The notes below the pieces were generated by a model. The model ran no database searches and was not told the origin of the DNA. It saw only the letters and a list, made by a program, of their open reading frames with translations. 64,000 bases of DNA from Nemertoderma westbladi (Eukaryota > Animalia > Xenacoelomorpha). The translations under genes and the position numbers were made by a program. Shown one piece after another: positions 24,637 to 63,449 of this stretch (positions are counted from its first letter, which is position 1; the number at the start of each line of letters is the position of its first letter). The DNA lies in the NCBI GenBank assembly GCA_032718475.1, contig JAUCBJ010000697.1:1-64000 (forward strand), read 5' to 3'.

Positions 24637-24829
24637 GTTTAACTACTATTTTTGCTGTGCTATACTTGTGTATTAATTGTGTGCCCTTATGATTACTATT
24701 ACACAGTTACATACAAATATGTATGCTATTACATTTTCAACGTTTTAATTTGATAGATTTTTAATGTTGAACTTACGTAATTTGTGGGTCTTAATCGTTT
24801 GAGTGTTAGAATCACACAGAGACAGTAAA

Positions 24830-33978: not shown

Positions 33979-34417
33979 AAATTAAGAATAATTAATGCGG
34001 TTAATTTTGACAGGGTGTCAAAATTAAGAATAATTACGGTCAACTTCAACTGGTGGAAGTTGAGAATCCTTCAATACTCTTCAAAAACTCTCTACGTGCT
34101 TGCCAGCACCCACTACGAGGAAACTCTGGTATTTGAGTTGAGACGAAGTCGTGGTTTAATTAATCAACAAACTCGATCTAACCAACTCGTAGTCGGCAGA
34201 TCACATATTTGGAGAGTTGTTAAGAGGGAATGGAAGTATCGATCACACCCATTGATATAATCCAAGTTGAGCCAGGAATCTGGCACGTCGAAGTTGAAGT
34301 ACAAGGAACGAACGTCGGACGATTCAGGATTACCGTTCGGGTGGTCCAAGCTGAGTACAATACCTACGAGGAACTGTTTTATGACATCGCGTATCTAGCT
34401 ATCGACGAGGTGTTACA

Positions 34418-35526: not shown

Positions 35527-35946
35527 TACTAACCCAGAGCCTGGCCTTGTGTTAGACTATACAATGGTGTTAGTATCCATTGATAAAATATGTTGTCGCA
35601 TTATTGGTAATTAATTAATTAACACTATTATAAATATAGATACAATTAAAATCCATTAAATAAATTAGGCCTAACCCTACACCATAATCACATTGAAAAG
35701 TTCAGTGACTTTCTAGAACATTTAGTCCCCGGGGTCTTTAACAACTGATATTCTAGAATATTTCTTCTCTTTTTCGCTCCACATTTTTCTCCTTCCATTG
35801 TTCCGCCTCCTCCAACTTCTCACTAAACCAACGTCTTTCTCTCTTTAGATTATCGGCTACAAAAGCTTCTGCTTTTCTTCTCACTGGAGTGAAAGAAAAT
35901 AACACTTTTCACTAAAAGAGAAGTATTATTATTCGTAATAATATTA

Positions 35947-42723: not shown

Positions 42724-42974
42724 AAATTAAGAATAATTAATGCGGTTAATTTTGACAGGGTGTCAAAATTAAGAATAATTACGGTCAACTTCAACTGGTG
42801 GAAGTTGAGAATCCTTCAATACTCTTCAAAAACTCTCTACGTGCTTGCCAGCACCCACTACGAGGAAACTCTGGTATTTGAGTTGAGACGAAGTCGTGGT
42901 TTAATTAATCAACAAACTCGATCTAACCAACTCGTAGTCGGCAGATCACATATTTGGAGAGTTGTTAAGAGGGA

Positions 42975-43166
42975 ATGGAAGTATCGATCACACCCATTGA
43001 TATAATCCAAGTTGAGCCAGGAATCTGGCACGTCGAAGTTGAAGTACAAGGAACGAACGTCGGACGATTCAGGATTACCGTTCGGGTGGTCCAAGCTGAG
43101 TACAATACCTACGAGGAACTGTTTTATGACATCGCGTATCTAGCTATCGACGAGGTGTTACAATGA
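42975..43166 (+). CDS. 63-aa upstream ORF overlapping the gag start (ATGA); also at 34230 and 56234
   Basis: Protein-like beta/alpha pattern; stop overlaps the gag ATG; the one copy-3 substitution I noticed is synonymous in this frame. Confidence 0.45.
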   Translation: MEVSITPIDIIQVEPGIWHVEVEVQGTNVGRFRITVRVVQAEYNTYEELFYDIAYLAIDEVLQ

Positions 43167-46100
43167 CGACAAATAACGTATCCGATACCGACGAGATGGA
43201 TCACCACACAGACTCGGAAGCCGACGAGGTACCAAACGTCAAGAACATGACCCGTCGGCTAGGGGCTCTCAAAGGCGGAGTAACCCGAGCGTATCAACGG
43301 ATGGAGAAACAACTCAAGGGAGTCAAAAACCCCCTCAATGAGGTACAAACTCAGCTCCAAAGTATCCGAAATATCCTACAGCGGTACGAAAGAATGATAC
43401 AGGCGTACCAAGAGCTCGTTCCCTCCACTGATCAGGAAAACTACCCCAAGTTGGAAGAACACGTTGTACATCTAGATGGGTTCCGCAAACAACACCGGAG
43501 GACCCTCAGCCTTGTGAGAGGCTATGAAGAACAGTATTACAAGAGGGCTGAAAGAACAGACGCGGAATCAGTACGATCCTCCAGCATCAGGACAGCAGTA
43601 CATCGAAAGAGAACGGGGTCCGCTAGAAATCAGCACTCCAGCGCTAGGAGCGAGATATCCGGCTCAGCGCACAGTTCTCAAGGGGGGCCGCCACTCCGAG
43701 ACCAACTGCGAGAACGGAAGGCATTAGCCCTCAAAGCTCGGATGGAAGATGAGTATATTCAACTGCAAGCCGAGCAAGATATATTAGCCGCCGAAATGCA
43801 AAAACGGGAGGCCGAACAAGAGGTCGAACGGCGGGCCGAGCAACATAGACAGGAGGCTGAACAACGTGAACGAGAGGCCAGACAAGAGATCGAACAACGT
43901 AAATGGGAAGCAGAAATGCGTAAACAACACGCCGAGGCCCAAGCAATTCTCACCCACAAAAAGAATGCGGATATTGCGAAACTCGCGGAATACGAAGCCG
44001 CACTTATAGAACGAGATATTCAACTATACGAGGACTGGGAAAGGGATATAGATCAGGAATATGAACCAATCCCGGTACCGGAATTAGAGAAGTCACTTTC
44101 ACCAACAGCGGCGAAACTTCCGAAACCCGAGATCCCGCCTACCATACAGTCTACCTTATCGGCACAAGCACCGGTGTTCCATCTCCCACCGGTTACGCTT
44201 AAAAATGAGGAACCGTATTTCCCATCCAACCCCACAGCAACGAGTGTACCCAAGTACGAGCCTGAAAGGGACTCGGAACGGGACGCCACTCCTCGATCCA
44301 ACAACCCGTTCACATCCACACCACAAACCCGTAGTCGCGTCATCATTAAAACTCCACCTACCATTGATCCATCGAGTATGGGAGAGAGTGCCAATAACTA
44401 TAACCCTCCGAACCACTCCAGTTCGGACAACATCGGCATTATCCGGGCATTGGAAAACCGCCTCTCCATGCCCAAGATGGAGATCCGCACCTTCGAAGGA
44501 GATCCCGTCGATTACCTCAGATTCAAGAAACGGTTCTTTGCGCAGATTGGATCAACGGACATAGCCGATGCACAGAAACTGGTATATTTATCGCAATACC
44601 TGGGTGACAAACCACGCCGAATCATCGCTTGTTTTGAGGGAGGTTCTCATGAAGCATACTACGACGCATGGAAAACTCTAGACAAAAGATACAGAAATAC
44701 CGGGACTATAATTAATAAAACTCTAGAGAAACTGATACAAGACGCGGGATCACTAGGGGACCCACAGAACCTCCAGGAATTTTCAGATTCCATGAAGGAT
44801 GCCTACTACACTCTGAAACCCTTAAATAAGGAGGACCAGGTGAACAACATTCTAAACCTCCGACAGATCGCCCGGAAGTTCCCCGGATGGCTGCAAAGTA
44901 AGTGGGCCTATAAATGCGTAGATCTCCGGCACAGACATCCAGATCGAGATCCCAGCTTCCTCGAAATGTCGGCATTCCTGGACGATATCTCCGAAGCCAT
45001 GAATGACTCGATGTTCTCGAAACAGAGTCTCGCCAAGTTGTACGCAATGGAGAGCAATTACCAGAGCAGGGCACCCACTCCAAACCCAAGATTCCGCCCT
45101 ACTCCTGTGAGTGCGATGGCCATCAGTATGGCTGAGGACTCGGATGACGAGGATTACGAGGAACCGACCTTAGCAGAAGAATGGGCATGCTACCTAGCGA
45201 ATTGGACACCCGAAAGGGAAGGCACCACAGCCTCCCCTATATGTCTCTTCTGCGGAGAGAAACATAAGTTGGAATTCTGCGGAAAGTTCCAGTTTGCTGA
45301 ACTCGTCCCACGCTTCGAGGCGATGATGAAACACCGAGGATGCTTCCGGTGTCTTGGAACAGGTCACTACGTTCGGGATTGCGACCAAAGGTCGTGTTGT
45401 GCGGTTTGTAACGACCTACGTCATCACACGCTCCTCCACATCCCCGCGAACTTCGACTTCACTACCCTCCCCTTTCGGATCGAAGCCAAGCGAAGAGGAG
45501 AAACGAACCACGTTTCCAAAGGAACCCGGATTACCCAACGGAGAGAAACCAATCCGTTTAAAATCTCCACCGATAAACCACAAGTAACCAACATTTCAGC
45601 CACGATTAATCTTATAAATCGCCGCTACATGGTCTTCGCAAAGGTAATCCCGGTAAGGATTCAGGGAGTCGGCAAATCCCTGACGATGCTCGCGTTCCTT
45701 GATAACGGGTCTGACGGAACCATCATCGACCGGGATTTCCTCGAGCAACTCGGCCTAGAATATGAACCTTGTAAACGGCCCATACAAACCATCACCGATA
45801 ACAGAGAGGTAGAGTCTGGGGAGGTGCAACTCCAAATGGAAGGAGTAATGAAGGGCTACGAGACGGTCAAGCTAACCATCAAGAACGCCTTGGTACACAC
45901 AGACCTCCGAGTGCGGTTCCGACAATCAGCCGAGTACGCCCCCCTCATACAATTGGACCGAGACGATGTAGATCTGAGGTGTCCACAGTTGGACGTAAAC
46001 CGCATCACCCTACTGATCGGACTTGATACACCGGAATTACACATACCTACCGGAGATGTCGCCCGATCCATAAAGAAAGATGACGGCTTTTACGCTGAAC

Positions 46101-46981
46101 GAACCATAATGGGATGGACCCTCTGCGGCATCAAGGAAGAAACTACTGACACCTATACATATCTTCCTAAATGTCAGATTAAAGAAAATGTAACATCCGT
46201 GGGATATTGCTCAGCTACAGACCTCGATGAGGATTTATTTCTCGAAACCGAGAGAACCCAGCGGGAGATGACCGGATGCTTTAATGTGGAGACCCGAGAG
46301 TTTGCCGAGAAGGACGAGAATCCGTCCGAGGAAGATCAATATTGTACCAACATTTTTGATCAGGCCACGTTCAAAGACGGACATTGGCGCGTGCCCATGC
46401 TTTGGTGGCTAATAAGGTTGTTGATGATAATAATGACGTTGATAACATTGACACCATTAACGGGAGAGCACGGACTAATCTGCCGTAATACCCGGATGGC
46501 AAACGCCTCAGTTGAGTCCCTCACTCCTAACCACTTACTGGGGAGACCCAAAACCCACGTTCTCCCGGAAACCATGTTCCTGGATCCCAACGAGATCGCG
46601 AAACATACAAACTGGAAAAAGGCCCAAGCGTTGGCAGCGCATTGGTGGAGAATTTGGGCCCAGGAGTACCTCATAACCCTCCGGACCAGGAGGAAATGGA
46701 ACAACACCTACCGGAACGTCGCAGTTGGCGACATGGTACTAGTTAAAGAAGATCTCAATGACCGCGTTCACTGGCCTTTGGCGCGGGTCGTGACCATACA
46801 CCCAAGCAAAGACGGACTTGCGAGGACTGTGACGATACGAACGAAATCGGGCCACTACCAACGCCCCATCCAAAAGCTGTGCCTTCTTGAAGGCAATGAT
46901 AGCGGTGACTCTACGAGAGGTGATAAGTTCCCTACTCAAGATCCTGCTGCAGACATCGGTGACAATGACAAATGCGTTTAA
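43163..46981 (+). CDS. BEL/Pao Gag-protease-integrase C-terminal fusion (RT, RNase H and integrase core missing)
   Basis: DUF1759-like (FEGDPVDYLRF, QKLVYLSQYL); three zinc knuckles (CLFCGEKHKLEFC, CFRCLGTGHYVRDC, CAVCNDLRHHTLLH); protease AFLDNGS; DUF5641-like LTPNHLLG..WAQEYL..VGDMVLV..WPLARV..DG..RPIQKLCLL. No YVDD RT motif. Confidence 0.92.
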   Translation: MTTNNVSDTDEMDHHTDSEADEVPNVKNMTRRLGALKGGVTRAYQRMEKQLKGVKNPLNEVQTQLQSIRNILQRYERMIQAYQELVPSTDQENYPKLEEHVVHLDGFRKQHRRTLSLVRGYEEQYYKRAERTDAESVRSSSIRTAVHRKRTGSARNQHSSARSEISGSAHSSQGGPPLRDQLRERKALALKARMEDEYIQLQAEQDILAAEMQKREAEQEVERRAEQHRQEAEQREREARQEIEQRKWEAEMRKQHAEAQAILTHKKNADIAKLAEYEAALIERDIQLYEDWERDIDQEYEPIPVPELEKSLSPTAAKLPKPEIPPTIQSTLSAQAPVFHLPPVTLKNEEPYFPSNPTATSVPKYEPERDSERDATPRSNNPFTSTPQTRSRVIIKTPPTIDPSSMGESANNYNPPNHSSSDNIGIIRALENRLSMPKMEIRTFEGDPVDYLRFKKRFFAQIGSTDIADAQKLVYLSQYLGDKPRRIIACFEGGSHEAYYDAWKTLDKRYRNTGTIINKTLEKLIQDAGSLGDPQNLQEFSDSMKDAYYTLKPLNKEDQVNNILNLRQIARKFPGWLQSKWAYKCVDLRHRHPDRDPSFLEMSAFLDDISEAMNDSMFSKQSLAKLYAMESNYQSRAPTPNPRFRPTPVSAMAISMAEDSDDEDYEEPTLAEEWACYLANWTPEREGTTASPICLFCGEKHKLEFCGKFQFAELVPRFEAMMKHRGCFRCLGTGHYVRDCDQRSCCAVCNDLRHHTLLHIPANFDFTTLPFRIEAKRRGETNHVSKGTRITQRRETNPFKISTDKPQVTNISATINLINRRYMVFAKVIPVRIQGVGKSLTMLAFLDNGSDGTIIDRDFLEQLGLEYEPCKRPIQTITDNREVESGEVQLQMEGVMKGYETVKLTIKNALVHTDLRVRFRQSAEYAPLIQLDRDDVDLRCPQLDVNRITLLIGLDTPELHIPTGDVARSIKKDDGFYAERTIMGWTLCGIKEETTDTYTYLPKCQIKENVTSVGYCSATDLDEDLFLETERTQREMTGCFNVETREFAEKDENPSEEDQYCTNIFDQATFKDGHWRVPMLWWLIRLLMIIMTLITLTPLTGEHGLICRNTRMANASVESLTPNHLLGRPKTHVLPETMFLDPNEIAKHTNWKKAQALAAHWWRIWAQEYLITLRTRRKWNNTYRNVAVGDMVLVKEDLNDRVHWPLARVVTIHPSKDGLARTVTIRTKSGHYQRPIQKLCLLEGNDSGDSTRGDKFPTQDPAADIGDNDKCV

Positions 46982-47249
46982 ACCCTTCTCATCATGTTGA
47001 CAAACTCTTTTTTAACTGTGATTTATCGACAACGAATTATGGACCCCCCTTAAACCAACTGTAACCACGCAATGGTATTTGTGTTTCCTCGTGTGTTATG
47101 TGGAGTCCAGCATCACCCTGCAGATGTTTCGACTGACGCAGGGTCGTTTATGTATTGTTTACCCTGATTTTGGTCATCGGGACCAATGATATTGGATTAT
47201 TGGAAATGGAAAAGATTTGAAGTGGAATTCATTGTATTCATTGCAGTAT

Positions 47250-47690
47250 GTTATGTTGTCCGTTGCGTGTGCAGTTCGGGGCGTAGGCGGTGTAACGAGT
47301 CCAGCTGTAGATCCCGGATTGCCGCGCAACACCCCCTCTATCCCGTTATTCTGGTGGGTCCATGGTGCATCCACATGACTTCGACGATAGAGGGTTTTAT
47401 GTTTCTCAGTCGCGTTATTCTGGTGGGACCGTTACGTGGATTTTGGGGCGTAGGCGGTGTAACGAGTCCAGCTGTAGATCCCAGAATGTTGCGTAACCCC
47501 ATCCCACATGACTTCGTCGACTGAGCTTTATGTTGTTGGGAGTGTTATTCTGGTGGGTCCATGGTGCATCCACGTGACTTCACTCTCGGCGTCTTCATTG
47601 TCCGTTACGTGCGCAGTTTGGGGCGTAGGCGGTGTAACGAGTCCAGCTGTAGATCCCAGATTGCCGCGTAACACCCCTTCCACGACAAAG
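47250..47690 (+). repeat. Three ~170-bp imperfect direct repeats in the inter-ORF region
   Basis: Identical 38-mer GGGGCGTAGGCGGTGTAACGAGTCCAGCTGTAGATCCC at ~47278, 47445 and 47620. Confidence 0.85.
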
Positions 47691-48059
47691 ATTAACCAAA
47701 GAAAATGATTGAATATAGTTGGAAACGATGAAAAGGATCAGACAACTCTACTATAAACCTGAATGATGACGCGTATGCTGATGAAAATGTAATGATGCGC
47801 ACCCTGGTGCTGCGCTTATAACCAATGATGATAGCCGGGGGGCTATAAACCCAATGATGATGTGGAAATAAATAAATGTGAAAAAATGGTGGAAATAAAT
47901 GTGATGAAATATATGTGGAAATAAATGAAATGTGATGGAATAATAATGAAATGAAAAAAGACAAAAAAAAGGTATAAAAAAGTCTAAAGAAAAGAATTGG
48001 AAAAAAGAAAGGACAAAAACGTCATAAAAAAACTGGTTGGATATTAATGTATAGTTATA

Positions 48060-51000
48060 CTACTACTACTACTAGGTCGAGCGAACTCGGACAGTGGAAA
48101 TGAGATCCTTCCAGGCTTCCCGATTCTCCATAGTTGTCGCAATTTCGTTTCTCCCAAGTTCAGTATCCCTTTCAAGTTGATCTATATATGTTATGGCAGG
48201 TCGTCCACGACTACGCTTTCCATGAGTTGGTTGCCAGAGAAGTAGATCTGGTATGACCTCGTCTTTACTTCGCCAGCAGTGCCCACTGAATCTTAATCTG
48301 CGTTCACGGAGGGTGGTTGATACAGGTGGTATTGTACCATAAAGCTCGGCGTTTGTCATGTGTTGTCTCCAGCTGATGTTTAGGGCTGCCCTTAGTAGTC
48401 TTGTGTAGCAACCATCAATTCGTTGTTCAAGTGATTTAGTCAGTGTCCAGGTCTCACCCCCGTATAAAAATACACTTTCCACTGTGGCTCGAAAGAACTT
48501 AGTCTTCAGGTGCCTGGAGAGATCTGATTTCCAGATGGTATCCATTTTTGATAGAGCTACCCAAGCCTTTGCTTTCCTAACTTCTATGTCCTTTTTGCTA
48601 CTCTCTATCCATGATCCAAGGTACTGGAAGTCATCGACCTTCCTTAGTTGATTATTATCAATGGTTGTCAAGTTTCCATCAACATTAAAGGTCATGAATT
48701 CGGTCTTGGTAGCATTTATGTGCAATCCAACCTCCTTAGCAGCCCTCTCCACTTTATTTAGTAGAAGCTGTGCATCTGCTAGCGTATTAGAGAGCAGGGC
48801 GATGTCATCCGCAAAGTCGGTGTCTGTGACTGTAGTTGCCGGATATCTACTACTTCTGCGTTCTTGAAGTGTGAATCCCAGATCTTCACCTGTTGTGGCC
48901 GTCCTCATTGCGTAATCCAGCACAATTACAAATAGTAATGGTGCTAATGTGTCACCTTGCAGTACGCCAGCCAGGATTGAGAAAAACTCAGTTTCACCAT
49001 CTGGTGAGAGTACCTGCGCTTCTGTGTCACAATATAACAATCCAATGCCAGCAACAATTACTTCTGGTATTCCATAAGCTCTTAGGATTTCAAGCATTTT
49101 ACCTCTATGGATGGAGTCGAATGCCTTCTTGAAGTCCACAAAAGTCATGACTGCGGGGAGATTCTTTGACTTAATTCCTTCAATTAGTCTCCGTAGTGCA
49201 AGTATCTGAGCTATTGTTGATCTACTTGGTCGAAATCCGTTTTGGCTCTTACGCAGTAGTTTCTCTATGTGAGGCCTAATCCTATATAGAATCATTTTAT
49301 TGTATATTTTGGCAGCTACCACAAGCAGACAGATCCCACGATAGTTTGTTGGTATGCCGAGGTCTCCTTTCTTGGGGAGAGGCTTTAGTTGACCTTTAGT
49401 CCAAATTGGTGGTGGCTTTTCCCCTTTTAACATCCGGTTGCAAACATTCAATAATGGTCTATTTAGCACTCCGGTTTTCCATACCTCCGCTGGGATTTCA
49501 TCTAATCCACTCGCTTTATTATTGGACATGCTTTTAATGCTTCTTTGGAGTTCGGCAGGTGTGAAGTCCCCTGTTTATATAGGTAGTGTCTTGTCATATA
49601 TTTTCCTTGTAGGGCTGACCTCGATGTTTGGTGGCTGCCCAAGCAAGTTGCTGAAGTGATTTTTCCACTTCCCAACACGTTCTTCAGGACTATCGGCTTT
49701 GAGGCGCCCCTTTGCACAACTTTTCCGACCAGATACCTCATTTACAGTTTGCCAGGTAAGTCTTGATTGTTGCTGTATGTGAGCAGTTGTAATTGCTTCA
49801 GTTTTATCCTGTATGTACTTTTCCTGGCTGATATTGTAGGCCAATTTAAGATCGTCCTTAGCTTTCTCAACCTTGTTAATGTTTTCGGTTGTTGGTTGTT
49901 CGGTTTTAACTTTGTAGGCTATCTTAAGATCTTCTCTCTTACAAGTAACCTCAGAGTTTTGCCATGGTACATACTGTTTTCGTTTAGGTTTCTGGGGGAT
50001 ATGCCTCTTAGCTGATTCCTTGTGGGCTGTTATTATATTCTGGTATATTGAATCGGTGGATTGGTCTTTATCTATTGACTGAAGTGCTTCAAAGCGGTTT
50101 TGAACTTCTACTGTATAAGCATCCTTTACAGCATTGTCAGTTCTGAGTTTCTCCCAGTCATAGTTGATCCGCCTGCTTGTCCTGGGTTTGCTGGCTCTCA
50201 AACTGAGTCTGATCTCTGCAGTCACAATTCTGTGGTCCGAACCAATTAGGTTGAACGAGCTGTATGCCTCGCAGTTGATCATGCTATTTCTCCACTTTTT
50301 GTTTATAAGGATGTAATCCAGTTGTGCTTTGGTTCCATTAGGGTATTGAAAGGTCCATAGCTTCCCCTTACTCTTTTCGAATGTGTTGTTTGTTGGTATC
50401 AATTCACATTCTTCCATTAGGTCTAAAAGTAAGTACCCATTTCTGCTAGAACAGGTGTTATAGGTGTAACCCTTGATGTCTTCTGGGCCAATTTGCGCAT
50501 TCAGGTCACCAGCAATGACTCTAACATTGTGTTTCGGGATGTCCTTAATAAGTCCAGTCAGTTCTTCATAAAACTTGACTGCTTGTTCTGGCTCTGATGC
50601 ATTGGTTGGACTGTAGCAACATATAACTGTTGTCTTGGGATTCCCATCAAATGTTGCGATCATAACCCTGGAATTTATAGATTCGATGTTGTTTAGGGTC
50701 TTAAGTGCAAATGGGCTTAGCAGAATTCCTACTCCACCAATTGATGCATTGGCCGAGTTTCTTACTGCTGAGCTTGTTACTAACATCCATCCATTCCCAA
50801 TGTCATTGTACTTCATGGCAGTGTCTTCATGACAAATCCGATGTTCTTGGATGCAGATGATGTCGATGTTATATTCCATTGCCAGAGCGACCATGTCACC
50901 CTGTTTGCTCTGTGATTTCAGCGTGCGTGCGTTCATTGTAGCAATATTTAGTGTCTTTTTACATTTCAACAGGTTGGTTCTTCTTTCTTCTCTGTCTTCT

Positions 51001-51111
51001 GTTCCAGTAGCCAATTTATCGACCCCAGCCTGGTGTACCACTGAGGGACGCGGTCCTTGTTGACCCGGGCGACGACCGAGCCGGTATTTCTCCTGGAGGG
51101 TTCTCATACTC
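48060..51111 (-). mobile_element. RTE-clade LINE nested antisense in the LTR element
   Basis: 13-bp TSD ATGTATAGTTATA (48047-48059 and 51112-51124), (TAG)n tail and a single APE+RT frame. Confidence 0.95.
48072..51107 (-). pseudogene. RTE APE endonuclease-reverse transcriptase ORF with one premature TAA (49575-49577)
   Basis: ATMNART, CIQEH, GDLNA, LDYIL, SDH; GVLQGDTLAP, FADDI. ORFs 49575-51113 and 48072-49529 are in the same frame. Confidence 0.93.
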
Positions 51112-51300
51112 ATGTATAGTTATAGTTATAGTAACTGTAAATGCTGAATGTATTAGCAATAAGATGATAGATGCCTATATAGCAATGTTATTAATAAACT
51201 GAATTAAATAAAAAACTGAATTATTCTGCTATCGCTATAGTTTCAGACTTTCTGGACTTATAATTAACTGATCTAATTTGTAACGGATATAATCGTAAAT

Positions 51301-53748
51301 ATGGACCCAAATCGCCAAATTATCGGCGAATTACGTAACACGATAGATCTACTGGAATATTCGCAACCCGGATCCCCTGACTTTGATACAAATTGGAGCA
51401 CCCTGCTAAATGAGAACGTGCGAGTCATTAAATTCACCGGGCGAGAGGGACCGGATTCTAAGAATCTACGAGCCCTCCGGTTAGCCGATGCTAGTACGAG
51501 ACTGAAAAGAACTCGGAACGCAAAGGCAACCGGGGGGGACGATTCGTCATTTTGGGAAACATTCCGGCAGAGCGTCTACAGATCCCGATGTTTGATCTAC
51601 GACAATGAGGGAAACGCGACGCCCACCTCGAAAGCGATTACGTTGGCGAGATGTCAAAGTTTCGTCGACGACAAGAGTACGTACCTCGCCCACTGGGGAA
51701 ACCTGTCGGAGTGTACGGCGACGCTTCGAGAGGAACGCGTATCGATTATCCAGAACCGAGACGACTACCAGGAAAAGTACGGGGCGAAAGAATACGGTCG
51801 ATCCTTAGTCATCGTCCTCGGAACCCTGGACGGTTTGGTACTGGTGTGCCGAATATTCCCGACACCCAGACAGGAAGTGCAGGCAGCCGGAGCGATCTGG
51901 TTGCTGCCTCCGGAAATCCAAAAGATCCTCTTCGATTTCGACGTCATTAAAATCGGGTCGGATATCAAGGCGGATGTCCGGAACGACTACGCGAACGCTC
52001 CTGCAGGAAGAAACCGACGAGACGACCTCAACGCCCTTAGCCATTGCATCGACACTCAAACGCTACTAGCCTGGTTACGATTCGCCGAGTTCATGCGAGG
52101 ATTCCAAGAGGTGAGACCGACGAAATCCGGGATCGGCTACCTCGCTGTGCTAAACGGCGGTATCGACTTCAAACCCCAGAAATTCCGGGACTATAATAAA
52201 ATATACGGTGGATACCCGGGAATAGAAATAAAGAGCGAGCGAGAGGGTCGATGGAAGGACGTTGATCGGAAGTGGACGATACACCAAAGGTGGGAGAATC
52301 CCGATCAACGGAACTACGTTTACGTCGTTATGGAGTGCTACACCGTCGCTAAGTTTATCTGTAAAACTCTCGATAACCTTATTACGGCGGTCCCCCTTTC
52401 CTTCGTCGACTACGACTGGAATGAGGTCATACACCACGCGTTCAAAGCGGTCGAGAACATCGCACCGGGAGAGACTAAAACGCTCGCTGTTATCGATTCC
52501 TGGGACGAGAGCGGACCTTACGACATCCCTACGATTACCGAACTTCTCAGTGCGGAGGAGCCTCTGATCTCTTCGGAAGGAGAAGAGATATGGCTAAACG
52601 AGGGTGTTCTACTCTCCACCCCGAAGCGACAACTCGAGCCGGAGGCCGCGTATGGACCGGCCGCCAAACGGGTTGCCTCGGCCGAACCGATGAAGAGAGC
52701 AGGCGTTTACACCCCACGCGGCTCCGGTAGCCCCGCGAGGGAGGTAGCTACTACAGCTGCATTGAGCGACTTCGGCGACATATGCCAACGGTTATCCCCG
52801 TATCCTTTCCCGGGTGGCGAAGATTGGTCGTCGGAGATTCCGAGTACCAGCCACCAACGGACCCGCTCAGCGATACTGGTCGAGGAGGGCCCCAGCGATG
52901 CGCCGACCCCCGACGATCTCCTCGGTATCCCTCCGTCTAAAACCCCGGCACCTCTTCGCCGACCAGCGGTGGCTACTACACCCGCCGTTCCTCAGGACCC
53001 TATGCGACTAACCCGTTGGTACGCCGAGCAAACTGAATGGATCCACCGCCAGAAACGGTCATCCGAGTTGAGACCAGCGGGATACAAAGAAGGTTATCGG
53101 AGCGAGAACCTACTACGCAAAAGCCTAGCATTCCGCGGGCTACCGACCACCGCGAATATTCCGAAGAGCGACCGACGACTCGAGTATCACGTCGGCGTCC
53201 CGATTCCGATATTTCCAGGTCGAGAGATGCAGTTGGAGGTATGCGGCGACTGTGGTTCGGAGCAGTGCCCATGCGGTAGAAGGAATCGGGTTACCGATTC
53301 ATGCCTCCAGCTCCTTGTGATACTCTATTGCCCATACTGCGCGACATCGGGCCACGACGTTTCCGTCTGTCCGATCCTTTATAACCTCTGCACCACGTGC
53401 GGTTTCCGTGGACATTCCTCTAGCCCCCGCTGCTATATCAAATGTCCAACCAAAGACATTACCGCTATGGGAAATATGGTCATGTTTGAAACATACGCAA
53501 ACAGCCACTTAAAGACCAAGGTTCGGAGAAACGCTCGGAATATTGCGCAGGAGATGGCGTGCGGGTATTTCTCCTTCCCGGAACGCCTCCACACGTCGGC
53601 CACGCTACCTTTCCATTACGTGGATCTGCTACTGAGCGCCGGATTATTCGGTCCATTTGAAGTCATTAGACGATTATACTCGTATAAAGAGGAGTTCGGT
53701 GACGGAGAATGGTTCCTAGAGGCACGCAAATCTGAGTTGGAAAGATGA
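51301..53748 (+). CDS. Accessory ORF2: DEDDy 3'-5' exonuclease-like domain, low-complexity linker and CCHC zinc knuckles
   Basis: ExoI-like LIYDNEG; ExoII-like LPPEIQKILFDFDVIKIGSDIKAD; CIDTQ; ExoIII-like W...YVVME; knuckles CPYCATSGHDVSVC and CTTCGFRGHSSSPRC. Confidence 0.75.
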   Translation: MDPNRQIIGELRNTIDLLEYSQPGSPDFDTNWSTLLNENVRVIKFTGREGPDSKNLRALRLADASTRLKRTRNAKATGGDDSSFWETFRQSVYRSRCLIYDNEGNATPTSKAITLARCQSFVDDKSTYLAHWGNLSECTATLREERVSIIQNRDDYQEKYGAKEYGRSLVIVLGTLDGLVLVCRIFPTPRQEVQAAGAIWLLPPEIQKILFDFDVIKIGSDIKADVRNDYANAPAGRNRRDDLNALSHCIDTQTLLAWLRFAEFMRGFQEVRPTKSGIGYLAVLNGGIDFKPQKFRDYNKIYGGYPGIEIKSEREGRWKDVDRKWTIHQRWENPDQRNYVYVVMECYTVAKFICKTLDNLITAVPLSFVDYDWNEVIHHAFKAVENIAPGETKTLAVIDSWDESGPYDIPTITELLSAEEPLISSEGEEIWLNEGVLLSTPKRQLEPEAAYGPAAKRVASAEPMKRAGVYTPRGSGSPAREVATTAALSDFGDICQRLSPYPFPGGEDWSSEIPSTSHQRTRSAILVEEGPSDAPTPDDLLGIPPSKTPAPLRRPAVATTPAVPQDPMRLTRWYAEQTEWIHRQKRSSELRPAGYKEGYRSENLLRKSLAFRGLPTTANIPKSDRRLEYHVGVPIPIFPGREMQLEVCGDCGSEQCPCGRRNRVTDSCLQLLVILYCPYCATSGHDVSVCPILYNLCTTCGFRGHSSSPRCYIKCPTKDITAMGNMVMFETYANSHLKTKVRRNARNIAQEMACGYFSFPERLHTSATLPFHYVDLLLSAGLFGPFEVIRRLYSYKEEFGDGEWFLEARKSELER

Positions 53749-54057
53749 ACCGACATGATCCCTATGCCTTCGAAAGGAAGAGCCGCCAGGAGACAAGCCG
53801 AAGCGTTACTCACAATGGATGTTGACGCTCCTCTACCAGCCATAGCGATCGATGAGAGTCGACGGGCGAAGAGACGAAAGGCGTATCAGAGAAAGAAATA
53901 GTGGATCGGGATATTCCAGGAACATTTATCGAACATTTATTTTTATACAAACTCTAGGACAAATTAATTAAAAACTATGCAATATTAAATTTGGGTTTTT
54001 TATATTGGGAATGACCTACGCAAACTCAATCTACCGACAGACTTCACGAAGGTCATT

Positions 54058-54065
54058 GGGGGGGA
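54058..54065 (+). other. Polypurine tract
   Basis: GGGGGGGA one base upstream of the 3' LTR TG. Confidence 0.85.
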
Positions 54066-54066
54066 C

Positions 54067-55982
54067 TGTTCGCGGTATTTCAACTTTCCATAACGCGAGT
54101 TGAATATTTTTGTATTTTATTAAAATTGATTATTCCGATATTACTACTGGGTGCGGGACCATGGGTTTTGGGCACATTCAATAAACTGGGGGCGATTTAT
54201 GGGCGAACTTTGGGGCAACTTACAGGGTACGGGAATAATTTCATAGTTATAAGGGCCAGGGGGGGATGGAAAATGCAAGCAGTATTCAGGTTAGCCTGAG
54301 TACTATTAGGCCCTGGCCAACTTCCTGCTGCCTGTAGGGGTGGATTTGGTAATGCGCCAGGCCTAAAGGACAAGGACTGCCCTTAGCGGTCCCTGGCCAA
54401 CAGCAGCCATTACGAGACTGAAAAGAACTCGGACCGCTGACTGCTTGTGTCAGGGATTTGCGACGGGAAACGACGGCCCCTTAGTAGCCAAGCCGTTCTG
54501 GTTCTCGATGATCGAACCCTTCGGGGTTCGTGAGGGGTGGAGCGGACACGCGAACGGGTGGCCAACTAACGACTGCCCCCTGAGCTAAGCCGTACTGGTT
54601 CTCGATGACCGATCCCTTCGGGGTTCGTGAGGGGTGGGACGGACATGCGAAAGGGCTGGCCACAGGACGGGTTCGACGAGGACTGCCCTTAGCGGTCTCT
54701 GGTCAACGGCAGCTATTACGAGACTGAAAAGAACTCGGAACGCTGACTGCTTGTGTCAGGGATTTGCGACGGGAAACGACAGCCCCTTAGTAGCCAAGCC
54801 GTTCTGGTTCTCGATGATCGAACCCTTCGGGGTTCGTGAGGGGTGGAGCGTACACGCGAACGGGTGGCCGACTAACGACTGCCCCCTGAGCTAAGCCGTA
54901 CTGGTTCTCGGTGACCGATCCCTTCGGGGTTCGCGAGGGGTGGGACGGACATGCGAAAGGGCTGGCCACAGGACGGGTTCGACGAGGACTGCCCTTAGCG
55001 GTCTCTGGTCAACGGCAGCTATTACGAGACTGAAAAGAACTCGGAACGCTGACTGCTTGTACCGGGATCTGCGACGGGAACCGACGACAGACCCCTTAGC
55101 CAAGCCGTACTGGTTCTCGATGATCGTTCCCTTCGGGGTTCGTGAGGGGTGGAACGGACACGCGATGGGGTCGAAAGACAAAGGACTAGACTCTACTGGC
55201 CTACCGACTGTTCGGAGCAGTTTCTCGGCTGCCGAAGCGACTACGAGCCTGAAAGGGACTCGGAAAGCCTAGGTGGTTGGGTTTCTGCGATGAACCGACG
55301 GACCCCTAGCCAAGCCGTTCTGGTTCTCGATGATCGTTCCCTTCGGGGTTCGTGAGGGGTGGAACGGACACGCGAACGGGTCCACCGACACGACAGACTC
55401 CTAGCTAAGCCGTACTGGTTCTCGATGACCGATCCCTTCGGGGTTCGAGAGGGGCGGTACGGATACGCGACAGAGTCTACCGACTGGACCGACCCTTAGC
55501 CAAGCCGTGCTGGTTCTCGATGATCGTTCCCTTCGGGGTTCGTGAGGGGTGGAACGGACACGCGACAGGGTCGACCGACACCGACACTACGGCACTAAGA
55601 CTAGGACCGAGGGAAAATCTGGGGAACATTAGGTAGGCTAAAATCTGAGCGAACAGTGGGTAATTAAATAATATACTGTAGGGATTTATATTGTCGTGTA
55701 TAATTATTGTGAATATTTGGTTTATATTGATTTGGGGAAGCCCAAAATTATTCTCAATCAGGGTTCAACAGGGTTCAATATTGTTGACCAGGTTCAACAG
55801 AGTTCAGTTACATTAAAGAGTATATCCAACTAATGCAGCTTTTTCTCAACCGCAACCCTGCATCTCAGAAATCATTCCTTCTCCAAAATCAATATCCGGT
55901 GACTGGCCGGGGCTCAGTGGTCTGTAAAGTCACGTCTCCAGCATCGGCGTTTTTCCCCCCTGGTGTTGGGATAACGGCAACA
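54067..55982 (+). mobile_element. 3' LTR (copy 3), shared as 5' LTR of a tandem second unit
   Basis: Preceded by the PPT and followed by the same leader and gag as LTR copy 2. Confidence 0.85.
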
Positions 55983-56421
55983 AAATTAAGAATAATTAAT
56001 GCGGTTAATTTTGACAGGGTGTCAAAATTAAGAATAATTACGGTCAACTTCAACTGGTGGAAGTTGAGAATCCTTCAATACTCTTCAAAAACTCTCTACG
56101 TGCTTGCCAGCACCCACTACGAGGAAACTCTGGTATTTGAGTTGAGACGAAGTCGTGGTTTAATTAATCAACAAACTCGATCTAACCAACTCGTAGTCGG
56201 CAGATCACATATTTGGAGAGTTGTTAACAGGGAATGGAAGTATCGATTACACCCATTGATATAATCCAAGTTGAGCCAGGAATCTGGCACGTCGAAGTTG
56301 AAGTACAAGGAACGAACGTCGGACGATTCAGGATTACCGTTCGGGTGGTCCAAGCTGAGTACAATACCTACGAGGAACTGTTTTATGACATCGCGTATCT
56401 AGCTATCGACGAGGTGTTACA

Positions 56422-59129
56422 ATGACGACAAATAACGTATCCGATACCGACGAGATGGATCACCACACAGACTCGGAAGCCGACGAGGTACCAAACGTCA
56501 AGAACATGACCCGTCGGCTAGGGGCTCTCAAAGGCGGAGTAACCCGAGCGTATCAACGGATGGAGAAACAACTCAAGGGAGTCAAAAACCCCCTCAATGA
56601 GGTACAAACTCAGCTCCAAAGTATCCGAAATATCCTACAGCGGTACGAAAGAATGATACAGGCGTACCAAGAGCTCGTTCCCTCCACTGATCAGGAAAAC
56701 TACCCCAAGTTGGAAGAACACGTTGTACATCTAGATGGGTTCCGCAAACAACACCGGAGGACCCTCAGCCTTGTGAGAGGCTATGAAGAACAGTATTACA
56801 AGAGGGCTGAAAGAACAGACGCGGAATCAGTACGATCCTCCAGCATCAGGACAGCAGTACATCGAAAGAGAACGGGGTCCGCTAGAAATCAGCACTCCAG
56901 CGCTAGGAGCGAGATATCCGGCTCAGCGCACAGTTCTCAAGGGGGGCCGCCACTCCGAGACCAACTGCGAGAACGGAAGGCATTAGCCCTCAAAGCTCGG
57001 ATGGAAGATGAGTATATTCAACTGCAAGCCGAGCAAGATATATTAGCCGCCGAAATGCAAAAACGGGAGGCCGAACAAGAGGTCGAACGGCGGGCCGAGC
57101 AACATAGACAGGAGGCTGAACAACGTGAACGAGAGGCCAGACAAGAGATCGAACAACGTAAATGGGAAGCAGAAATGCGTAAACAACACGCCGAGGCCCA
57201 AGCAATTCTCACCCACAAAAAGAATGCGGATATTGCGAAACTCGCGGAATACGAAGCCGCACTTATAGAACGAGATATTCAACTATACGAGGACTGGGAA
57301 AGGGATATAGATCAGGAATATGAACCAATCCCGGTACCGGAATTAGAGAAGTCACTTTCACCAACAGCGGCGAAACTTCCGAAACCCGAGATCCCGCCTA
57401 CCATACAGTCTACCTTATCGGCACAAGCACCGGTGTTCCATCTCCCACCGGTTACGCTTAAAAATGAGGAACCGTATTTCCCATCCAACCCCACAGCAAC
57501 GAGTGTACCCAAGTACGAGCCTGAAAGGGACTCGGAACGGGACGCCACTCCTCGATCCAACAACCCGTTCACATCCACACCACAAACCCGTAGTCGCGTC
57601 ATCATTAAAACTCCACCTACCATTGATCCATCGAGTATGGGAGAGAGTGCCAATAACTATAACCCTCCGAACCACTCCAGTTCGGACAACATCGGCATTA
57701 TCCGGGCATTGGAAAACCGCCTCTCCATGCCCAAGATGGAGATCCGCACCTTCGAAGGAGATCCCGTCGATTACCTCAGATTCAAGAAACGGTTCTTTGC
57801 GCAGATTGGATCAACGGACATAGCCGATGCACAGAAACTGGTATATTTATCGCAATACCTGGGTGACAAACCACGCCGAATCATCGCTTGTTTTGAGGGA
57901 GGTTCTCATGAAGCATACTACGACGCATGGAAAACTCTAGACAAAAGATACGGAAATACCGGGACTATAATTAATAAAACTCTAGAGAAACTGATACAAG
58001 ACGCGGGATCACTAGGGGACCCACAGAACCTCCAGGAATTTTCAGATTCCATGAAGGATGCCTACTACACTCTGAAACCCTTAAATAAGGAGGACCAGGT
58101 GAACAACATTCTAAACCTCCGACAGATCGCCCGGAAGTTCCCCGGATGGCTGCAAAGTAAGTGGGCCTATAAATGCGTAGATCTCCGGCACAGACATCCA
58201 GATCGAGATCCCAGCTTCCTCGAAATGTCGGCATTCCTGGACGATATCTCCGAAGCCATGAATGACTCGATGTTCTCGAAACAGAGTCTCGCCAAGTTGG
58301 ACGCAATGGAGAGCAATTACCAGAGCAGGGCACCCACTCCAAACCCAAGATTCCGCCCTACTCCTGTGAGTGCGATGGCCATCAGTATGGCTGAGGACTC
58401 GGATGACGAGGATTACGAGGAACCGACCTTAGCAGAAGAATGGGCATGCTACCTAGCGAATTGGGCACCCGAAAGGGAAGGCACCACAGCCTCCCCTATA
58501 TGTCTCTTCTGCGGAGAGAAACATAAGTTGGAATTCTGCGGAAAGTTCCAGTTTGCTGAACTCGTCCCACGCTTCGAGGCGATGATGAAACACCGAGGAT
58601 GCTTCCGGTGTCTTGGAACAGGTCACTACGTTCGGGATTGCGACCAAAGGTCGTGTTGTGCGGTTTGTAACGACCTACGTCATCACACGCTCCTCCACAT
58701 CCCCGCGAACTTCGACTTCACTACCCTCCCCTTTCGGATCGAAGCCAAGCGAAGAGGAGAAACGAACCACGTTTCCAAAGGAACCCGGATTACCCAACGG
58801 AGAGAAACCAATCCGTTTAAAATCTCCACCGATAAACCACAAGTAACCAACATTTCAGCCACGATTAATCTTATAAATCGCCGCTACATGGTCTTCGCAA
58901 AGGTAATCCCGGTAAGGATTCAGGGAGTCGGCAAATCCCTGACGACGCTCGCGTTCCTTGATAATGGGTCTGACGGAACCATCATCGACCGGGATTTCCT
59001 CGAGCAACTCGGCCTAGAATAGGAACCTTGTAAACGGCCCATACAAACCATCACCGATAACAGAGAGGTAGAGTCTGGGGAGGTGCAACTCCAAATGGAA
59101 GGAGTAATGAAGGGCTACGAGACGGTCAA
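56422..59129 (+). pseudogene. Gag-protease of the truncated tandem unit
   Basis: Four amino-acid differences from the 43163 ORF; TAT>TAG at 59020-59022; homology ends at 59129 and satellite resumes. Confidence 0.9.
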
Positions 59130-61588
59130 CCACTCCTAACTCCTAACCACTCCTAGTCTTATTACTAAGTTACTAAGCCTACTAACCAGTCCTAGTCTTA
59201 TTACTAAGTTACTAAGCCTACTAACCACTCCTAGTCTTATTACTAAGTTACTAAGCCTACTAACCAGTCCTAGTCTTATTACTAAGTTACTAAGCCTACT
59301 AACCACTCCTAGTCTTATTACTAAGTTACTAAGCCTACTAACCAATCCTTGACTTATTACTAAGTTACTAAGCCTACTAACCACTCCTCGTCGTATTACT
59401 AAGTTACTAAGCCTACTAACCACTCCTATTCTTATTACTAAGTTACTAAGCCTACTAACCATTCCTAGTCTTATTACTAAGTTACTAAGCCTACTAACCA
59501 ATCCTTGACTTATTACTAAGTTACTAAGCCTACTAACCACTCCTCGTCGTATTACTAAGTTACTAAGCCTACTAACCACTCCTATTCTTATTACTAAGTT
59601 ACTAAGCCTACTAACCATTCCTAGTCTTATTACTAAGTTACTAAGCCTACTAACCAATCCTTGACTTATTACTAAGCTACTAAGCCTACTAACCACTCCT
59701 CGTCGTATTACTAAGTTACTAAGCCTACTAACCATTCCTAGTCTTATTACTAAGTTACTAAGCCTACTATCCAATCCTTGACTTATTACTAAGTTACTAA
59801 GCCTACTAACCACTCCTCGTCGTATTACTAAGTTACTAAGCCTACTAACCACTCCTATTCTTATTACTAAGTTACTAAGCCTACTAACCACTCCTATTCT
59901 TATTACTAAGTTACTAAGCCTACTAACCATTCCTAGTCTTATTACTAAGTGACTAAGCCTACTAACCACACCTCGTCGTATTACTAAGTTAATAAGCCTA
60001 CTAACCACTCCTAGTCTTATTACTAAGTTACTAAGCCTACTAACCACTCCTAGTCTTATTACTAAGTTACTAAGCCTACTAACCAATCCTTGTCTTATTA
60101 CTAAGTTACTAAGCCTACTAACCACTCCTAGTCTTATTACTAAGTTACTAAGCCTACTAACCAGTCCTAGTCTTATTACTAAGTTACTAAGCCTACTAAC
60201 CACTCCTAGTCTTATTACTAAGTTACTAAGCCTACTAACCAGTCCTAGTCTTATTACTAAGTTACTAAGCCTACTAACCACTCCTAGTCTTATTACTAAG
60301 TTACTAAGCCTACTAACCAGTCCTAGTCTTATTACTAAGTTACTAAGCCTACTAACCACTCCTAGTCTTATTACTAAGTTACTAAGCCTACTAACCAGTC
60401 CTAGTCTTATTACTAAGTTACTAAGCCTACTAACCACTCCTATTCTTATTACTAAGTTACTAAGCCTACTAACCACTCCTAGTCTTATTACTAAGTTACT
60501 AAGCCTACTAACCACTCCTAGTCTTATTACTAAGTTACTAAGCCTACTAACCAGTCCTAGTCTTATTACTAAGTTACTAAGCCTACTAACCACTCCTAGT
60601 CTTATTACTAAGTTACTAAGCCTACTAACCAGTCCTAGTCTTATTACTAAGTTACTAAGCCTACTAACCACTCCTAGTCTTATTACTAAGTTACTAAGCC
60701 TACTAACCAATCCTTGACTTATTACTAAGTTACTAAGCCTACTAACCACTCCTCGTCGTATTACTAAGTTACTAAGCCTACTAACCACTCCTATTATTAT
60801 TACTAAGTTACTAAGCCTACTAACCATTCCTAGTCTTATTACTAAGTGACTAAGCCTACTAACCACACCTCGTCGTTTTACTAAGTTACTAAGCCTACTA
60901 ACCACTCCTATTCTTATTACTAAGTTACTAAGCCTACTAACCATTCCTAGTCTTATTACTAAGTGACTAAGCCTACTAACCACACCTCGTCGTATTACTA
61001 AGTTAATAAGCCTACTAACCACTCCTAGTCTTATTACTAAGTTACTAAGCCTACTAACCACTCCTAGTCATATTACTAAGTTACTAAGCCTACTAACCAC
61101 TCCTAGTCTTATTACTAAGTTACTAAGCCTACTAACCACTCATAGACTTATTACTAAGTTACTAAGCCTACTAACCACTCCTAGTCTTATTACTAAGTTA
61201 CTAAGCCTACTAACCACTCCTATTCTTATTACTAAGTTACTAAGCCTACTAACCACTCCTACTCTTATTACTAAGTTACTAAGCCTACTAACCACTCCTA
61301 GTCTTATTACTAAGTTACTAAGCCTACTAACCACTCATAGACTTATTACTAAGTTACTCAGCCTACTAACCACTCCTAGTCTTATTACTAAGTTACTAAG
61401 CCTACTAACCACTCCTAGTCTTATTACTAAGTTACTAAGCCTACTAACCACTCCTAGTCTTTTTACTAAGTTACTAAGCCTACTAACCACTCCTAGTCTT
61501 ATTACTAAGTTACTAAGCCTACTAACCACTCCTATTCTTATTACTAAGTTACTAAGCCTACTAACCACTCCTAGTCTTTTTACTAAGT
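59130..61588. repeat. 39-bp satellite, block 3
   Basis: Same unit and orientation as blocks 1 and 2. Confidence 0.97.
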
Positions 61589-62552: not shown

Positions 62553-63449
62553 GAATCTCTCCGACACTGTGCCGAAATCTCTCCGACACTGTGCCGAAAT
62601 CTCTCCGACACTGTGCCGAAATCTCTCCGACACTGTGCCGAAATCTCTCCGACACTGTGCCGAAATCTCTCCGAACTGTGCCGAAATCTCTCCGACACTG
62701 TGCCGAAATCTCTCCGACACTGTGCCGAAATCTCTCCGAACTGTGCCGAAATCTCTCCGACACTGTGCCGAAATCTCTCCGACACTGTGCCGAAATCTCT
62801 CCGACACTGTGCCGAAATCTCTCCGACACTGTGCCGAAATCTCTCCGACACTGTGCCGAAATCTCTCCGAACTGTGCCGAAATCTCTCCGACACTGTGCC
62901 GAAATCTCTCCGACACTGTGCCGAAATCTCTCCGACACTGTGCCGAAATCTCTCCGACACTGTGCCGAAATCTCTCCGACACTGTGCCGAAATCTCTCCG
63001 ACACTGTGCCGAAATCTCTCCGACACTGTGCCGAAATCTCTCCGAACTGTGCCGAAATCTCTCCGACACTGTGCCGAAATCTCTCCGACACTGTGCCGAA
63101 ATCTCTCCGACACTGTGCCGAAATCTCTCCGACACTGTGCCGAAATCTCTTCGACACTGTGCCGAAATCTCTCCGAACTGTGCCGAAATCTCTCCGACAC
63201 TGTGCCGAAATCTCTCCGACACTGTGCCGAAATCTCTCCGACACTGTGCCGAAATCTCTCCGACACTGTGCCGAAATCTCTCCGACACTGTGCCGAAATC
63301 TCTCCGACACTGTGCCGAAATCTCTCCGACACTGTGCCGAAATCTCTCCGACACTGTGCCGAAATCTCTCCGACACTGTGCCGAAATCTCTCCGACACTG
63401 TGCCGAAATCTCTCCGACACTGTGCCGAAATCTCTCAGACACTGCCGAC
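62553..63449. repeat. 22-bp tandem array (GCCGAAATCTCTCCGACACTGT) with 21-bp variants
   Basis: Directly visible periodicity. Confidence 0.97.

What the first reader, a model, noticed from the sequence alone, without database searches (positions are those of the whole stretch)
54475..55573. Eight kink-turn/cUUCGg hairpins with covarying closing stems in each LTR
Seen: units at about 54475, 54575, 54781, 54881, 55090, 55300, 55395 and 55490 fold by hand as P1, internal loop (UAGCYAAG/AYAYGCGA), CCGUWC stem, then UCUC-GAU-GA-Y-CG...CCC-UUCG-GGG...CG-N-GA-GGGG. P1 varies but stays complementary: GACCCC/GGGGUC, GGACCC/GGGUCC, AGACUC/GAGUCU, CGACCCU/AGGGUCG. Established: a 3-nt bulge followed by tandem G.A/A.G pairs is the canonical kink-turn, the following U.U pair is as in box C/D RNAs, k-turns bind L7Ae-family proteins (15.5K/Snu13, eL30, SBP2), and cUUCGg is an extra-stable tetraloop. 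Inference: this is a selected, sense-strand, multivalent protein-binding RNA scaffold rather than a neutral minisatellite.
Basis: partly seen in the sequence, partly recalled or inferred. Interest (0 to 1): 0.85.

Follow-up and report, generated by a model that had tools for sequence, protein, structure and literature searches.

The report
Docking-hairpin array in retrotransposon LTR
The repeated ends of an animal retrotransposon carry eight copies of one hairpin with sequence motifs of RNA bends and docking sites, plus four copies of a second hairpin that recurs inside two of its genes, which likely lets the element's RNA fold up on itself for packaging, a role not yet tested.

Summary
The eight hairpins (A) are real: 24 copies, eight in each of three LTR copies of an internally deleted BEL/Pao retrotransposon. 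All eight match the standard k-turn descriptor, and their closing stems are unit-specific and pair best with their own partner (rank 2 of 720). The 'internal loop' is an 11-nt GAAA-tetraloop-receptor-like motif over a sheared A·G. A second hairpin (B), capped by GAAA, sits four times between the A units and once each inside gag and ORF2, in different reading frames. One contig ends in a template-switch adapter plus an untemplated G at 54277, 29 nt below a TATA box, hinting at capped plus-strand transcription through the array. Caveats: a slipped helix is 4-7.5 kcal/mol more stable than the k-turn register in the Turner model; only 3 of 8 receptors keep the core U; U·U occurs in 5 of 8; no homologous arrays from other species were obtained. 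Best reading: a selected RNA scaffold in which GAAA loops likely dock into receptors to compact or pair the genomic RNA. Not in Rfam or in my literature searches. Function untested.

The parts
54053..54066 (+). Purine-rich tract (PPT) just before the LTR start
   Evidence: sequence; ICTV profile PMC8742986
54067..55982 (+). LTR: starts TGTTCGC; right end unresolved, either 55655 (7-nt inverted match to the start) or about 55982. Other copies start at about 32064 and 40808
54248..54253 (+). TATA-like box, 29 nt upstream of the candidate start site
54277..54277 (+). Candidate capped transcription start (one contig of run X4 with template-switch adapter plus an untemplated G)
54404..54439 (+). 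B1 hairpin core: 5x4 loop, CGAG/CUCG stem, GAAA tetraloop, on a long lower stem
54471..54564 (+). A1: P1, AGUA/GAA loop-E-like motif, receptor-like motif (C at position 3), k-turn (U:U), cUUCGg
54570..54661 (+). A2: receptor-like motif with U3, k-turn 3b:3n C:U
54710..54745 (+). B2 hairpin core
54777..54870 (+). A3 (duplicate of A1 in the 306-bp repeat)
54876..54967 (+). A4 (duplicate of A2), 3b:3n C:C
55016..55051 (+). B3 hairpin core
55085..55176 (+). A5
55237..55268 (+). B4 hairpin core (same top as the gag copy)
55295..55386 (+). A6
55390..55481 (+). A7: closest to the canonical 11-nt receptor (U3, U7), 3b:3n C:A
55485..55576 (+). A8
51489..51522 (+). B hairpin inside ORF2, on a 10-bp lower stem; read as STRLKRTR
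57508..57541 (+). B hairpin inside gag (also at about 44249-44282); read as YEPERDSER, a different frame from the ORF2 copy
43163..46981 (+). BEL/Pao gag-pol ORF: DUF1759, CCHC knuckle, aspartyl protease, DUF5641; no RT, RNase H or integrase-core match, so internally deleted
51301..53748 (+). ORF2: DEDDy 3'-5' exonuclease-like fold followed by a Cys/His-rich domain
47256..47680 (+). Second hairpin array between pol and ORF2 (three C units, two to three D units), with an invariant core and compensatory outer stems

Best explanation
The array is a set of RNA hairpins kept under selection in the LTR of a BEL/Pao retrotransposon, and it likely works as a self-docking scaffold in which GAAA loops of the B hairpins would dock into receptor-like motifs of the A hairpins to compact or pair the genomic RNA for packaging. 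Shown: the A and B hairpins, their motifs, the unit-specific closing stems, and the two extra B hairpins inside gag and ORF2. Inferred: transcription from about 54277 puts the array in R, so it would sit at both ends of the RNA. The predicted k-turn would bend each A arm, probably with help from a host L7Ae-family protein. Unit-specific P1 stems would stop neighbouring repeats from cross-pairing. B copies in coding regions would tie the body of the RNA to its ends.
For: Motifs: 8 of 8 A units have G-C/C-G pairs, an AA step, G-Y and a bulged Y in the order of the 11-nt receptor (numbering from PMC10243134). The core G10-C2 pair is invariant. The swapped 1-11 pair is a change that paper scores at only 0.5-1.5 kcal/mol. 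Ligand present: six GAAA-capped B hairpins per element, all on +. The two coding-region copies match the LTR core at 23 and 20 of 24 nt, against a best of 18 in 500 codon shuffles. They lie in different frames and keep a lower stem with changes on both sides (3 of 10 pairs). k-turn positions follow the folding rules of PMC8191799: -1 pair C:G in 8 of 8, and 3b:3n takes four states, none Watson-Crick. Core 13 of 67 against flanks 24 of 28 variable columns, p=2e-9 (units are related, so p is optimistic). Adapter-plus-G contig end at 54277 with TATA at -29. A second array with the same design (invariant core, covarying outer stem) lies before ORF2.
Against: 5 of 8 receptors have C at position 3, and PMC10243134 reports that all substitutions at the U3-A8 step greatly weaken GAAA binding. 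Searching that paper's 4 supplementary files for these variants gave 0 hits. The k-turn register is 4.2-7.5 kcal/mol less stable than a slipped register in all 8 units, and RNAalifold picks the slipped one; the model has no k-turn term. Covariation within the eight units is modest: 4 of 28 pairs with a change on both sides, 24 of 500 shuffles as high. Gene conversion could also homogenise the cores. The units are about six independent types from one family, and no array from another species was seen. The start site rests on one contig of a run labelled 'DNA?'. Whole-array MFE folds favour cross-pairing between repeats.
Confidence: 0.42

Rival explanations
1. The array is mainly a multivalent protein-binding platform. 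Host 15.5K/Snu13, eL30 or SBP2 would bind the k-turns, and the element's ORF2 protein (Egalitarian/Nibbler-like exonuclease fold plus zinc domain) would bind B. Together they would drive export, germline localisation or protection of the RNA, like Rev/RRE or Egl/localisation signals (recalled).
For: k-turn descriptor met in 8 of 8. A competing fold that needs protein to switch is typical of L7Ae sites (PMC5689011 introduction; PMC6298567 abstract start). ORF2 aligns to Nibbler EXO (Z 13.6, rmsd 3.5, 200 aligned) and Egalitarian (Z about 11). Foldseek's top rows are Egl-RNA complexes at E 2e-3. B scattered through ORFs suits a protein-recognised signal.
Against: Does not by itself explain the receptor-like motif or why B is capped by GAAA. 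The ORF2 model is low-confidence (mean pLDDT 48.7), and many DEDD nucleases score alike. ORF2 keeps acidic residues at the candidate catalytic places (D109, E111, D233, E353), so it may be a nuclease rather than a binder.
Confidence: 0.3
2. The array shields the RNA ends: tightly folded R-region hairpins would block 3'-5' or 5'-3' decay, or set the stop point for trimming by the element's own DEDDy exonuclease.
For: The element encodes a DEDDy-like ORF2. PMC5408684 suggests 3'-end processing for such ORFs in rotifer LTR elements, untested there (passages). R would be at both RNA ends.
Against: Does not explain internal B copies in gag and ORF2; no RNA-end data at the array.
Confidence: 0.1
3. 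A neutral or DNA-level repeat: duplication and gene conversion spread one chance hairpin, or the repeats are DNA binding sites for a host or element protein.
For: Clear 306-bp and 95-bp tandem duplications; units not unusually stable; the k-turn descriptor alone is met by about 9-10% of shuffles.
Against: Nested combination in 0 of 5000 shuffles, twice. Plus-strand bias of RNA-only motifs. Cognate P1 pairing. B hairpins in two ORFs in different frames with paired lower stems.
Confidence: 0.1
4. A and B together form an undescribed catalytic RNA (self-cleaving or ligating), as hammerheads do in retrozyme LTRs (recalled).
For: Dense tertiary motifs are typical of large ribozymes (recalled).
Against: No Rfam match at E<=10 in 53900-56500, and none credible in 42300-54100. 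No hammerhead core on + in 40808-55990. Cleaving R eight times would destroy the genome.
Confidence: 0.04

Closest known systems
Standard k-turn (Kt-7, U4, box C/D; Lilley rules, PMC8191799, PMC5689011)
   Same: 3-nt bulge, tandem G·A/A·G, -1 pair C:G, non-Watson-Crick 3b:3n, L3=U.
   Different: Eight copies in a retrotransposon LTR; C-helix has two G·U pairs and a competing slipped register; not box C/D (4b:4n C:G).
GAAA tetraloop / 11-nt receptor (group I and II introns, RNase P, tectoRNA; PMC10243134)
   Same: C2-G10, A4A5, G6-Y7, A8 and bulged position 9 in order; GAAA-capped hairpins in the same RNA.
   Different: 1-11 pair swapped in all units, C3 in 5 of 8, an extra bulged A above; receptors and loops lie on separate repeated hairpins, some inside ORFs.
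Retroviral and Ty1 packaging and dimerisation signals (psi, DIS; recalled, listings only)
   Same: Structured cis-acting hairpins near the RNA end of an LTR element.
   Different: Here probably within R, about 1.2 kb, made of 12 repeated modules of tertiary motifs with satellite copies in coding regions; no kissing-loop palindrome in A or B.
BEL/Pao (Belpaoviridae) elements (PMC8742986); DEDDy ORF3 of bdelloid Juno/Vesta elements (PMC5408684)
   Same: Gag domains, DUF5641, PPT, TG start; an extra 3' ORF of DEDDy type.
   Different: LTR of 1.6-1.9 kb against 0.2-1.2 kb in the ICTV profile; the DEDDy ORFs in the passages read were in Juno, Vesta and Athena elements; no hairpin array is mentioned in the text seen.

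Membership tests
BEL/Pao LTR retrotransposon | BEL/Pao gag-pol domains (DUF1759, CCHC, protease, DUF5641) | tested here: met
   all 15 homologues listed carry DUF1759 or Peptidase_A17 accessions
BEL/Pao LTR retrotransposon | RT, RNase H and integrase core in pol | tested here: not met
   no Pfam match in 43130-46978; this copy is an internally deleted derivative, filed as such
BEL/Pao LTR retrotransposon | PPT, then LTR with TG...CA ends | tested here: inconclusive
   PPT and TG start seen; right end 55655 or about 55982
BEL/Pao LTR retrotransposon | tRNA-Arg/Gly primer-binding site | tested here: inconclusive
   none recognised by eye in 55655-56420; host tRNA set not available
Standard k-turn | 3-nt bulge plus tandem G·A/A·G between two helices | tested here: met
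   8 of 8 by sequence
Standard k-turn | k-turn register is the populated one | tested here: inconclusive
   slipped register favoured by 4.2-7.5 kcal/mol in a model with no k-turn term
Standard k-turn | Kinked geometry and L7Ae-family binding | not testable with these tools
   needs FRET, structure or binding assay
Box C/D snoRNA | Box C (RUGAUGA) and box D (CUGA), recalled | tested here: not met
   4b:4n is C:G in 8 of 8, U:U in 5 of 8; no Rfam match
11-nt GAAA receptor | G10-C2 pair, A4-A5 platform, A8, G6-Y7, Watson-Crick 1-11 | tested here: met
   8 of 8 by sequence
11-nt GAAA receptor | U3·A8 core pair | tested here: not met
   met in 3 of 8 (A2, A4, A7), C3 in 5 of 8; hence called receptor-like
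11-nt GAAA receptor | Docks a GAAA tetraloop | not testable with these tools
   candidate ligand B is present; docking unmeasured
SECIS element | AUGA/GA core plus 9-11 bp helix and apical AA (recalled) | tested here: not met
   AUGA/GA-like core present, but a 7-bp upper stem closed by UUCG with no apical AA
Known self-cleaving ribozymes | Rfam model match or hammerhead core | tested here: not met
DEDDy exonuclease (ORF2) | DnaQ-like fold | tested here: met
   Z 13.6 to Nibbler EXO; Atlas rows with PF01612 at 0.92; model pLDDT is low
DEDDy exonuclease (ORF2) | Four catalytic acidic residues and activity | tested here: inconclusive
   D109, E111, D233, E353 by a low-identity alignment

The most novel reading that the evidence does not exclude
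A natural tectoRNA: an animal retrotransposon builds its genomic RNA into a defined three-dimensional particle from repeated k-turn/receptor arms in R and GAAA hairpins planted in its genes, so that RNA self-assembly, not a single psi site, selects, pairs and circularises genomes.
Probability: 0.28. Interest if true: 0.92.

Novelty: new variant of a known kind. Interest (0 to 1): 0.72.

Why it matters
How BEL/Pao elements select and handle their RNA is essentially unknown; the ICTV profile calls their replication poorly understood. This element offers small, repeated, easily synthesised modules with explicit predictions (k-turn, receptor, GAAA donor) that can be probed in vitro. If they dock, it would be a eukaryotic mobile element using the tertiary-motif toolkit of large ribozymes as a repeated building block, and a natural model for RNA nanoarchitecture. 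It would also link a DEDDy accessory gene to candidate RNA targets.

Tried and rejected
No whole genome is held, so copies elsewhere in the genome could not be aligned. Homologous arrays: an A-core motif in metagenome contigs gave 0 matches. ORF2-based locus searches gave none in viral contigs or metagenome contigs (161 pattern hits, 0 confirmed). Alignments A1 and A2 were too diverse for that tool. A cross-species covariation test therefore remains open. ORF2 word searches found 0 relatives; the exhaustive search found 9, all unnamed or 'hypothetical'. Rfam found nothing in 53900-56500 at E<=10 and one chance miRNA row in 42300-54100. No listed run is on record as RNA. The gap in X6's contig across the array (54497 to 55510) may be assembly collapse and is not used as evidence of array-less LTRs. 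No loose end at 55655 appears among the rows shown (93 rows hidden). Family-wide variant tables show only the top 40 rows and are diluted by eight-fold cross-mapping, so they were not used as a selection test. An archaeal H/ACA guide reading was rejected: the 'pocket' is nearly invariant and internally paired, and k-turn H/ACA RNAs are archaeal (recalled). Hammerhead, twister, pistol and HDV readings were checked by eye from recalled cores and by Rfam; none fit. Literature listings held no report of such an array: kink-turn+retrotransposon+LTR, 5 papers; tetraloop receptor+GAAA+retrotransposon, 3; 0; 2; 22; 15 listed; 4. These were listings only, of an open-access library; Repbase reports and subscription papers were not searchable. 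Earlier scan findings: none by sequence, words or place.

Full report
Context. The window is eukaryotic and satellite-rich. A block starting TGTTCGC occurs at about 32064, 40808 and 54067; the copies are 99.7-99.8% identical. The middle copy runs LTR, then a 1283-aa frame with DUF1759, CCHC, aspartyl protease and DUF5641, which are BEL/Pao domains. It has no RT or integrase core, so it is internally deleted. Next come a non-coding stretch interrupted by a minus-strand LINE with a 13-bp duplication at its ends, an 815-aa ORF2, a purine tract and the third LTR. That LTR runs on into another gag, so the window cannot fix the LTR's right end. Two candidates exist: 55655, a 7-nt inverted match to the start, and about 55982. 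Summed contig depth in runs X1, X3 and X4 falls at about 55955-55995 and not at 55655. The unique sequence just after the array is about two to three times deeper than internal sequence in X1 and X3. The tool warns that such depths are a poor measure, so this is a weak hint. It places the array inside an LTR of 1.6-1.9 kb, longer than the 0.2-1.2 kb in the ICTV profile (PMC8742986, whole text).

The observation. All eight have -1b:-1n C:G, a GAU (once GGU) bulge, GA on both strands and 4b:4n C:G. 3b:3n is U:U five times, then C:U, C:C and C:A. Under the rules in PMC8191799 (first fifth of the text), Watson-Crick pairs at 3b:3n block folding while 3b=C and -1 C:G favour it, so the variation seen stays within permitted states. 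P1 arms differ between units and pair best with their own partner (rank 2 of 720 for six types; 1 of 24 for A5-A8). Variation is concentrated in P1 and the linkers (24 of 28 columns) rather than the core (13 of 67). Against this, single units are not unusually stable, and pair-level covariation is modest (4 of 28 pairs; 24 of 500 shuffles as high). A slipped helix beats the k-turn register by 4.2-7.5 kcal/mol in all eight and is the RNAalifold consensus. The energy model has no k-turn term, and many k-turns fold only with protein (PMC5689011, abstract and introduction). The k-turn is therefore plausible but not shown.

It reads GCYAAG on one strand and YAYGC on the other. Against the 11-nt GAAA receptor as numbered in PMC10243134 (passages and section 8), it keeps C2-G10, A4-A5, A8, G6-Y7 and a bulged position 9 in 8 of 8, and swaps the 1-11 pair, a change scored there at 0.5-1.5 kcal/mol. 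The core U3 is kept in A2, A4 and A7 only. The other five have C3, and that paper reports that all changes at this step greatly weaken binding. Below the motif every unit has an A opposite G; A1 and A3 have the fuller AGUA/GAA loop-E pattern (name recalled). The nested k-turn, receptor and cUUCGg arose in 0 of 5000 shuffles for each of A6 and A7, although the descriptor was written after the fact.

Second: the spacers are a second module. B is a CGAG/CUCG stem topped by a short stem and a GAAA tetraloop, above a 5x4 loop and a lower stem. The LTR order is B A A B A A B A B A A A. B also occurs once in gag (57516, and 44257 in the middle copy) and once in ORF2 (51497), always on +. These copies match the LTR core at 20 and 23 of 24 nt; the best of 500 codon shuffles reached 18. 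They are read in different frames, so the constraint is on nucleotides. Their lower stems differ in sequence but stay paired. In ORF2 the hairpin falls where the protein has extra residues relative to most relatives and low model confidence (residues 56-87), as if it had been inserted. A further array of hairpins with an invariant 38-nt core and compensatory outer stems lies at 47256-47680 (3 of 25 pairs with changes on both sides among 3 copies).

Transcription. No run is on record as RNA. However, one contig of run X4 has a loose end before 54277 that equals the 3' end of the SMARTer template-switch adapter printed in PMC9245221, plus one more G. The genome has C at 54276, and that paper treats an untemplated G as a cap tag, 88% of which map near 5' ends (passages). 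A TATA-like box starts 29 nt upstream. This is a single contig, but it gives strand and place: a capped plus-strand RNA starting about 100 nt before B1. If polyadenylation is downstream of the array, which was not mapped, the array is in R and present at both ends of the RNA.

ORF2. Nine distant relatives were found. The model is weak overall (pLDDT 48.7), but residues 40-395 align to DEDD exonucleases: Nibbler at Z 13.6, NrnC at 12.8 and Egalitarian at about 11. DEDDy ORF3s are known from rotifer LTR elements, with untested function (PMC5408684, passages).

Mechanism. Receptor-like motifs and GAAA loops on the same RNA, insulated by unit-specific stems and with donor copies placed in coding regions, most simply suggest RNA-RNA docking that compacts or pairs the genome for packaging and brings its ends together (0.42). 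A protein-binding platform for L7Ae-family proteins or ORF2 is the main rival (0.30), and the two are compatible. End protection (0.10), neutral or DNA-level repeats (0.10) and catalysis (0.04) follow. That the array acts as structured RNA at all I put near 0.85. All docking, binding and function steps are inferred.

Novelty. There is no Rfam match, and the listings of seven searches held no report of such an array. An unchecked earlier scan note describes a different covarying hairpin array in a Perkinsus retroelement. The parts are known motifs and the role resembles known cis-acting signals of LTR elements, but the modular arrangement appears undescribed: a new variant of a known kind, interest 0.72. 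The main gap is that no array from another species could be fetched, so selection is argued from within one family. Supplementary datasets of the receptor paper beyond the four files searched may hold measured affinities for these variants.

Noticed in passing
window 47256-47680: Second hairpin array between pol and ORF2: three C units with an invariant 38-nt core, a 10-nt loop and compensatory outer stems, and two to three D units whose loop holds a wobble-palindromic hexamer that could form a kissing dimer (speculative).
   Followed up: partly
window 48047-51124: Minus-strand LINE (endonuclease plus RT, one stop at 49575-49577) inserted in the BEL/Pao element, with a 13-bp target duplication and a short 3-bp-unit tail.
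   Followed up: partly
window 28552-40808 and 59143-61588: The element sits in a 39-bp satellite; the copies at 32064 and 40808 share the same satellite junction, suggesting a segmental duplication of satellite plus element.
   Followed up: partly
window 35526: The first element copy is truncated in the middle of its gag B hairpin and joined to a duplicate of 28129-28605.
   Followed up: no
window 54066-59129: The 3' LTR continues into a second gag: a tandem LTR-sharing arrangement.
   Followed up: partly
A units, e.g. window 55538-55549: The non-bulged k-turn strand also reads as a C-GNRA-G loop in all eight units (N = U, C or A), though with only a weak stem.
   Followed up: no
window 51301-53748: A DEDDy-like plus Cys/His-rich accessory ORF in a BEL/Pao element, with nine distant unnamed relatives; may be an undescribed ORF family.
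   Followed up: partly
window 12841-28144 and 62554-63444: At least six other satellites (21, 18, 31, 29, 14 and 22 bp units) and a tRNA-Asn gene at 15598-15669.
   Followed up: no
window 5603-6844: 413-aa open frame with no Pfam match.
   Followed up: no
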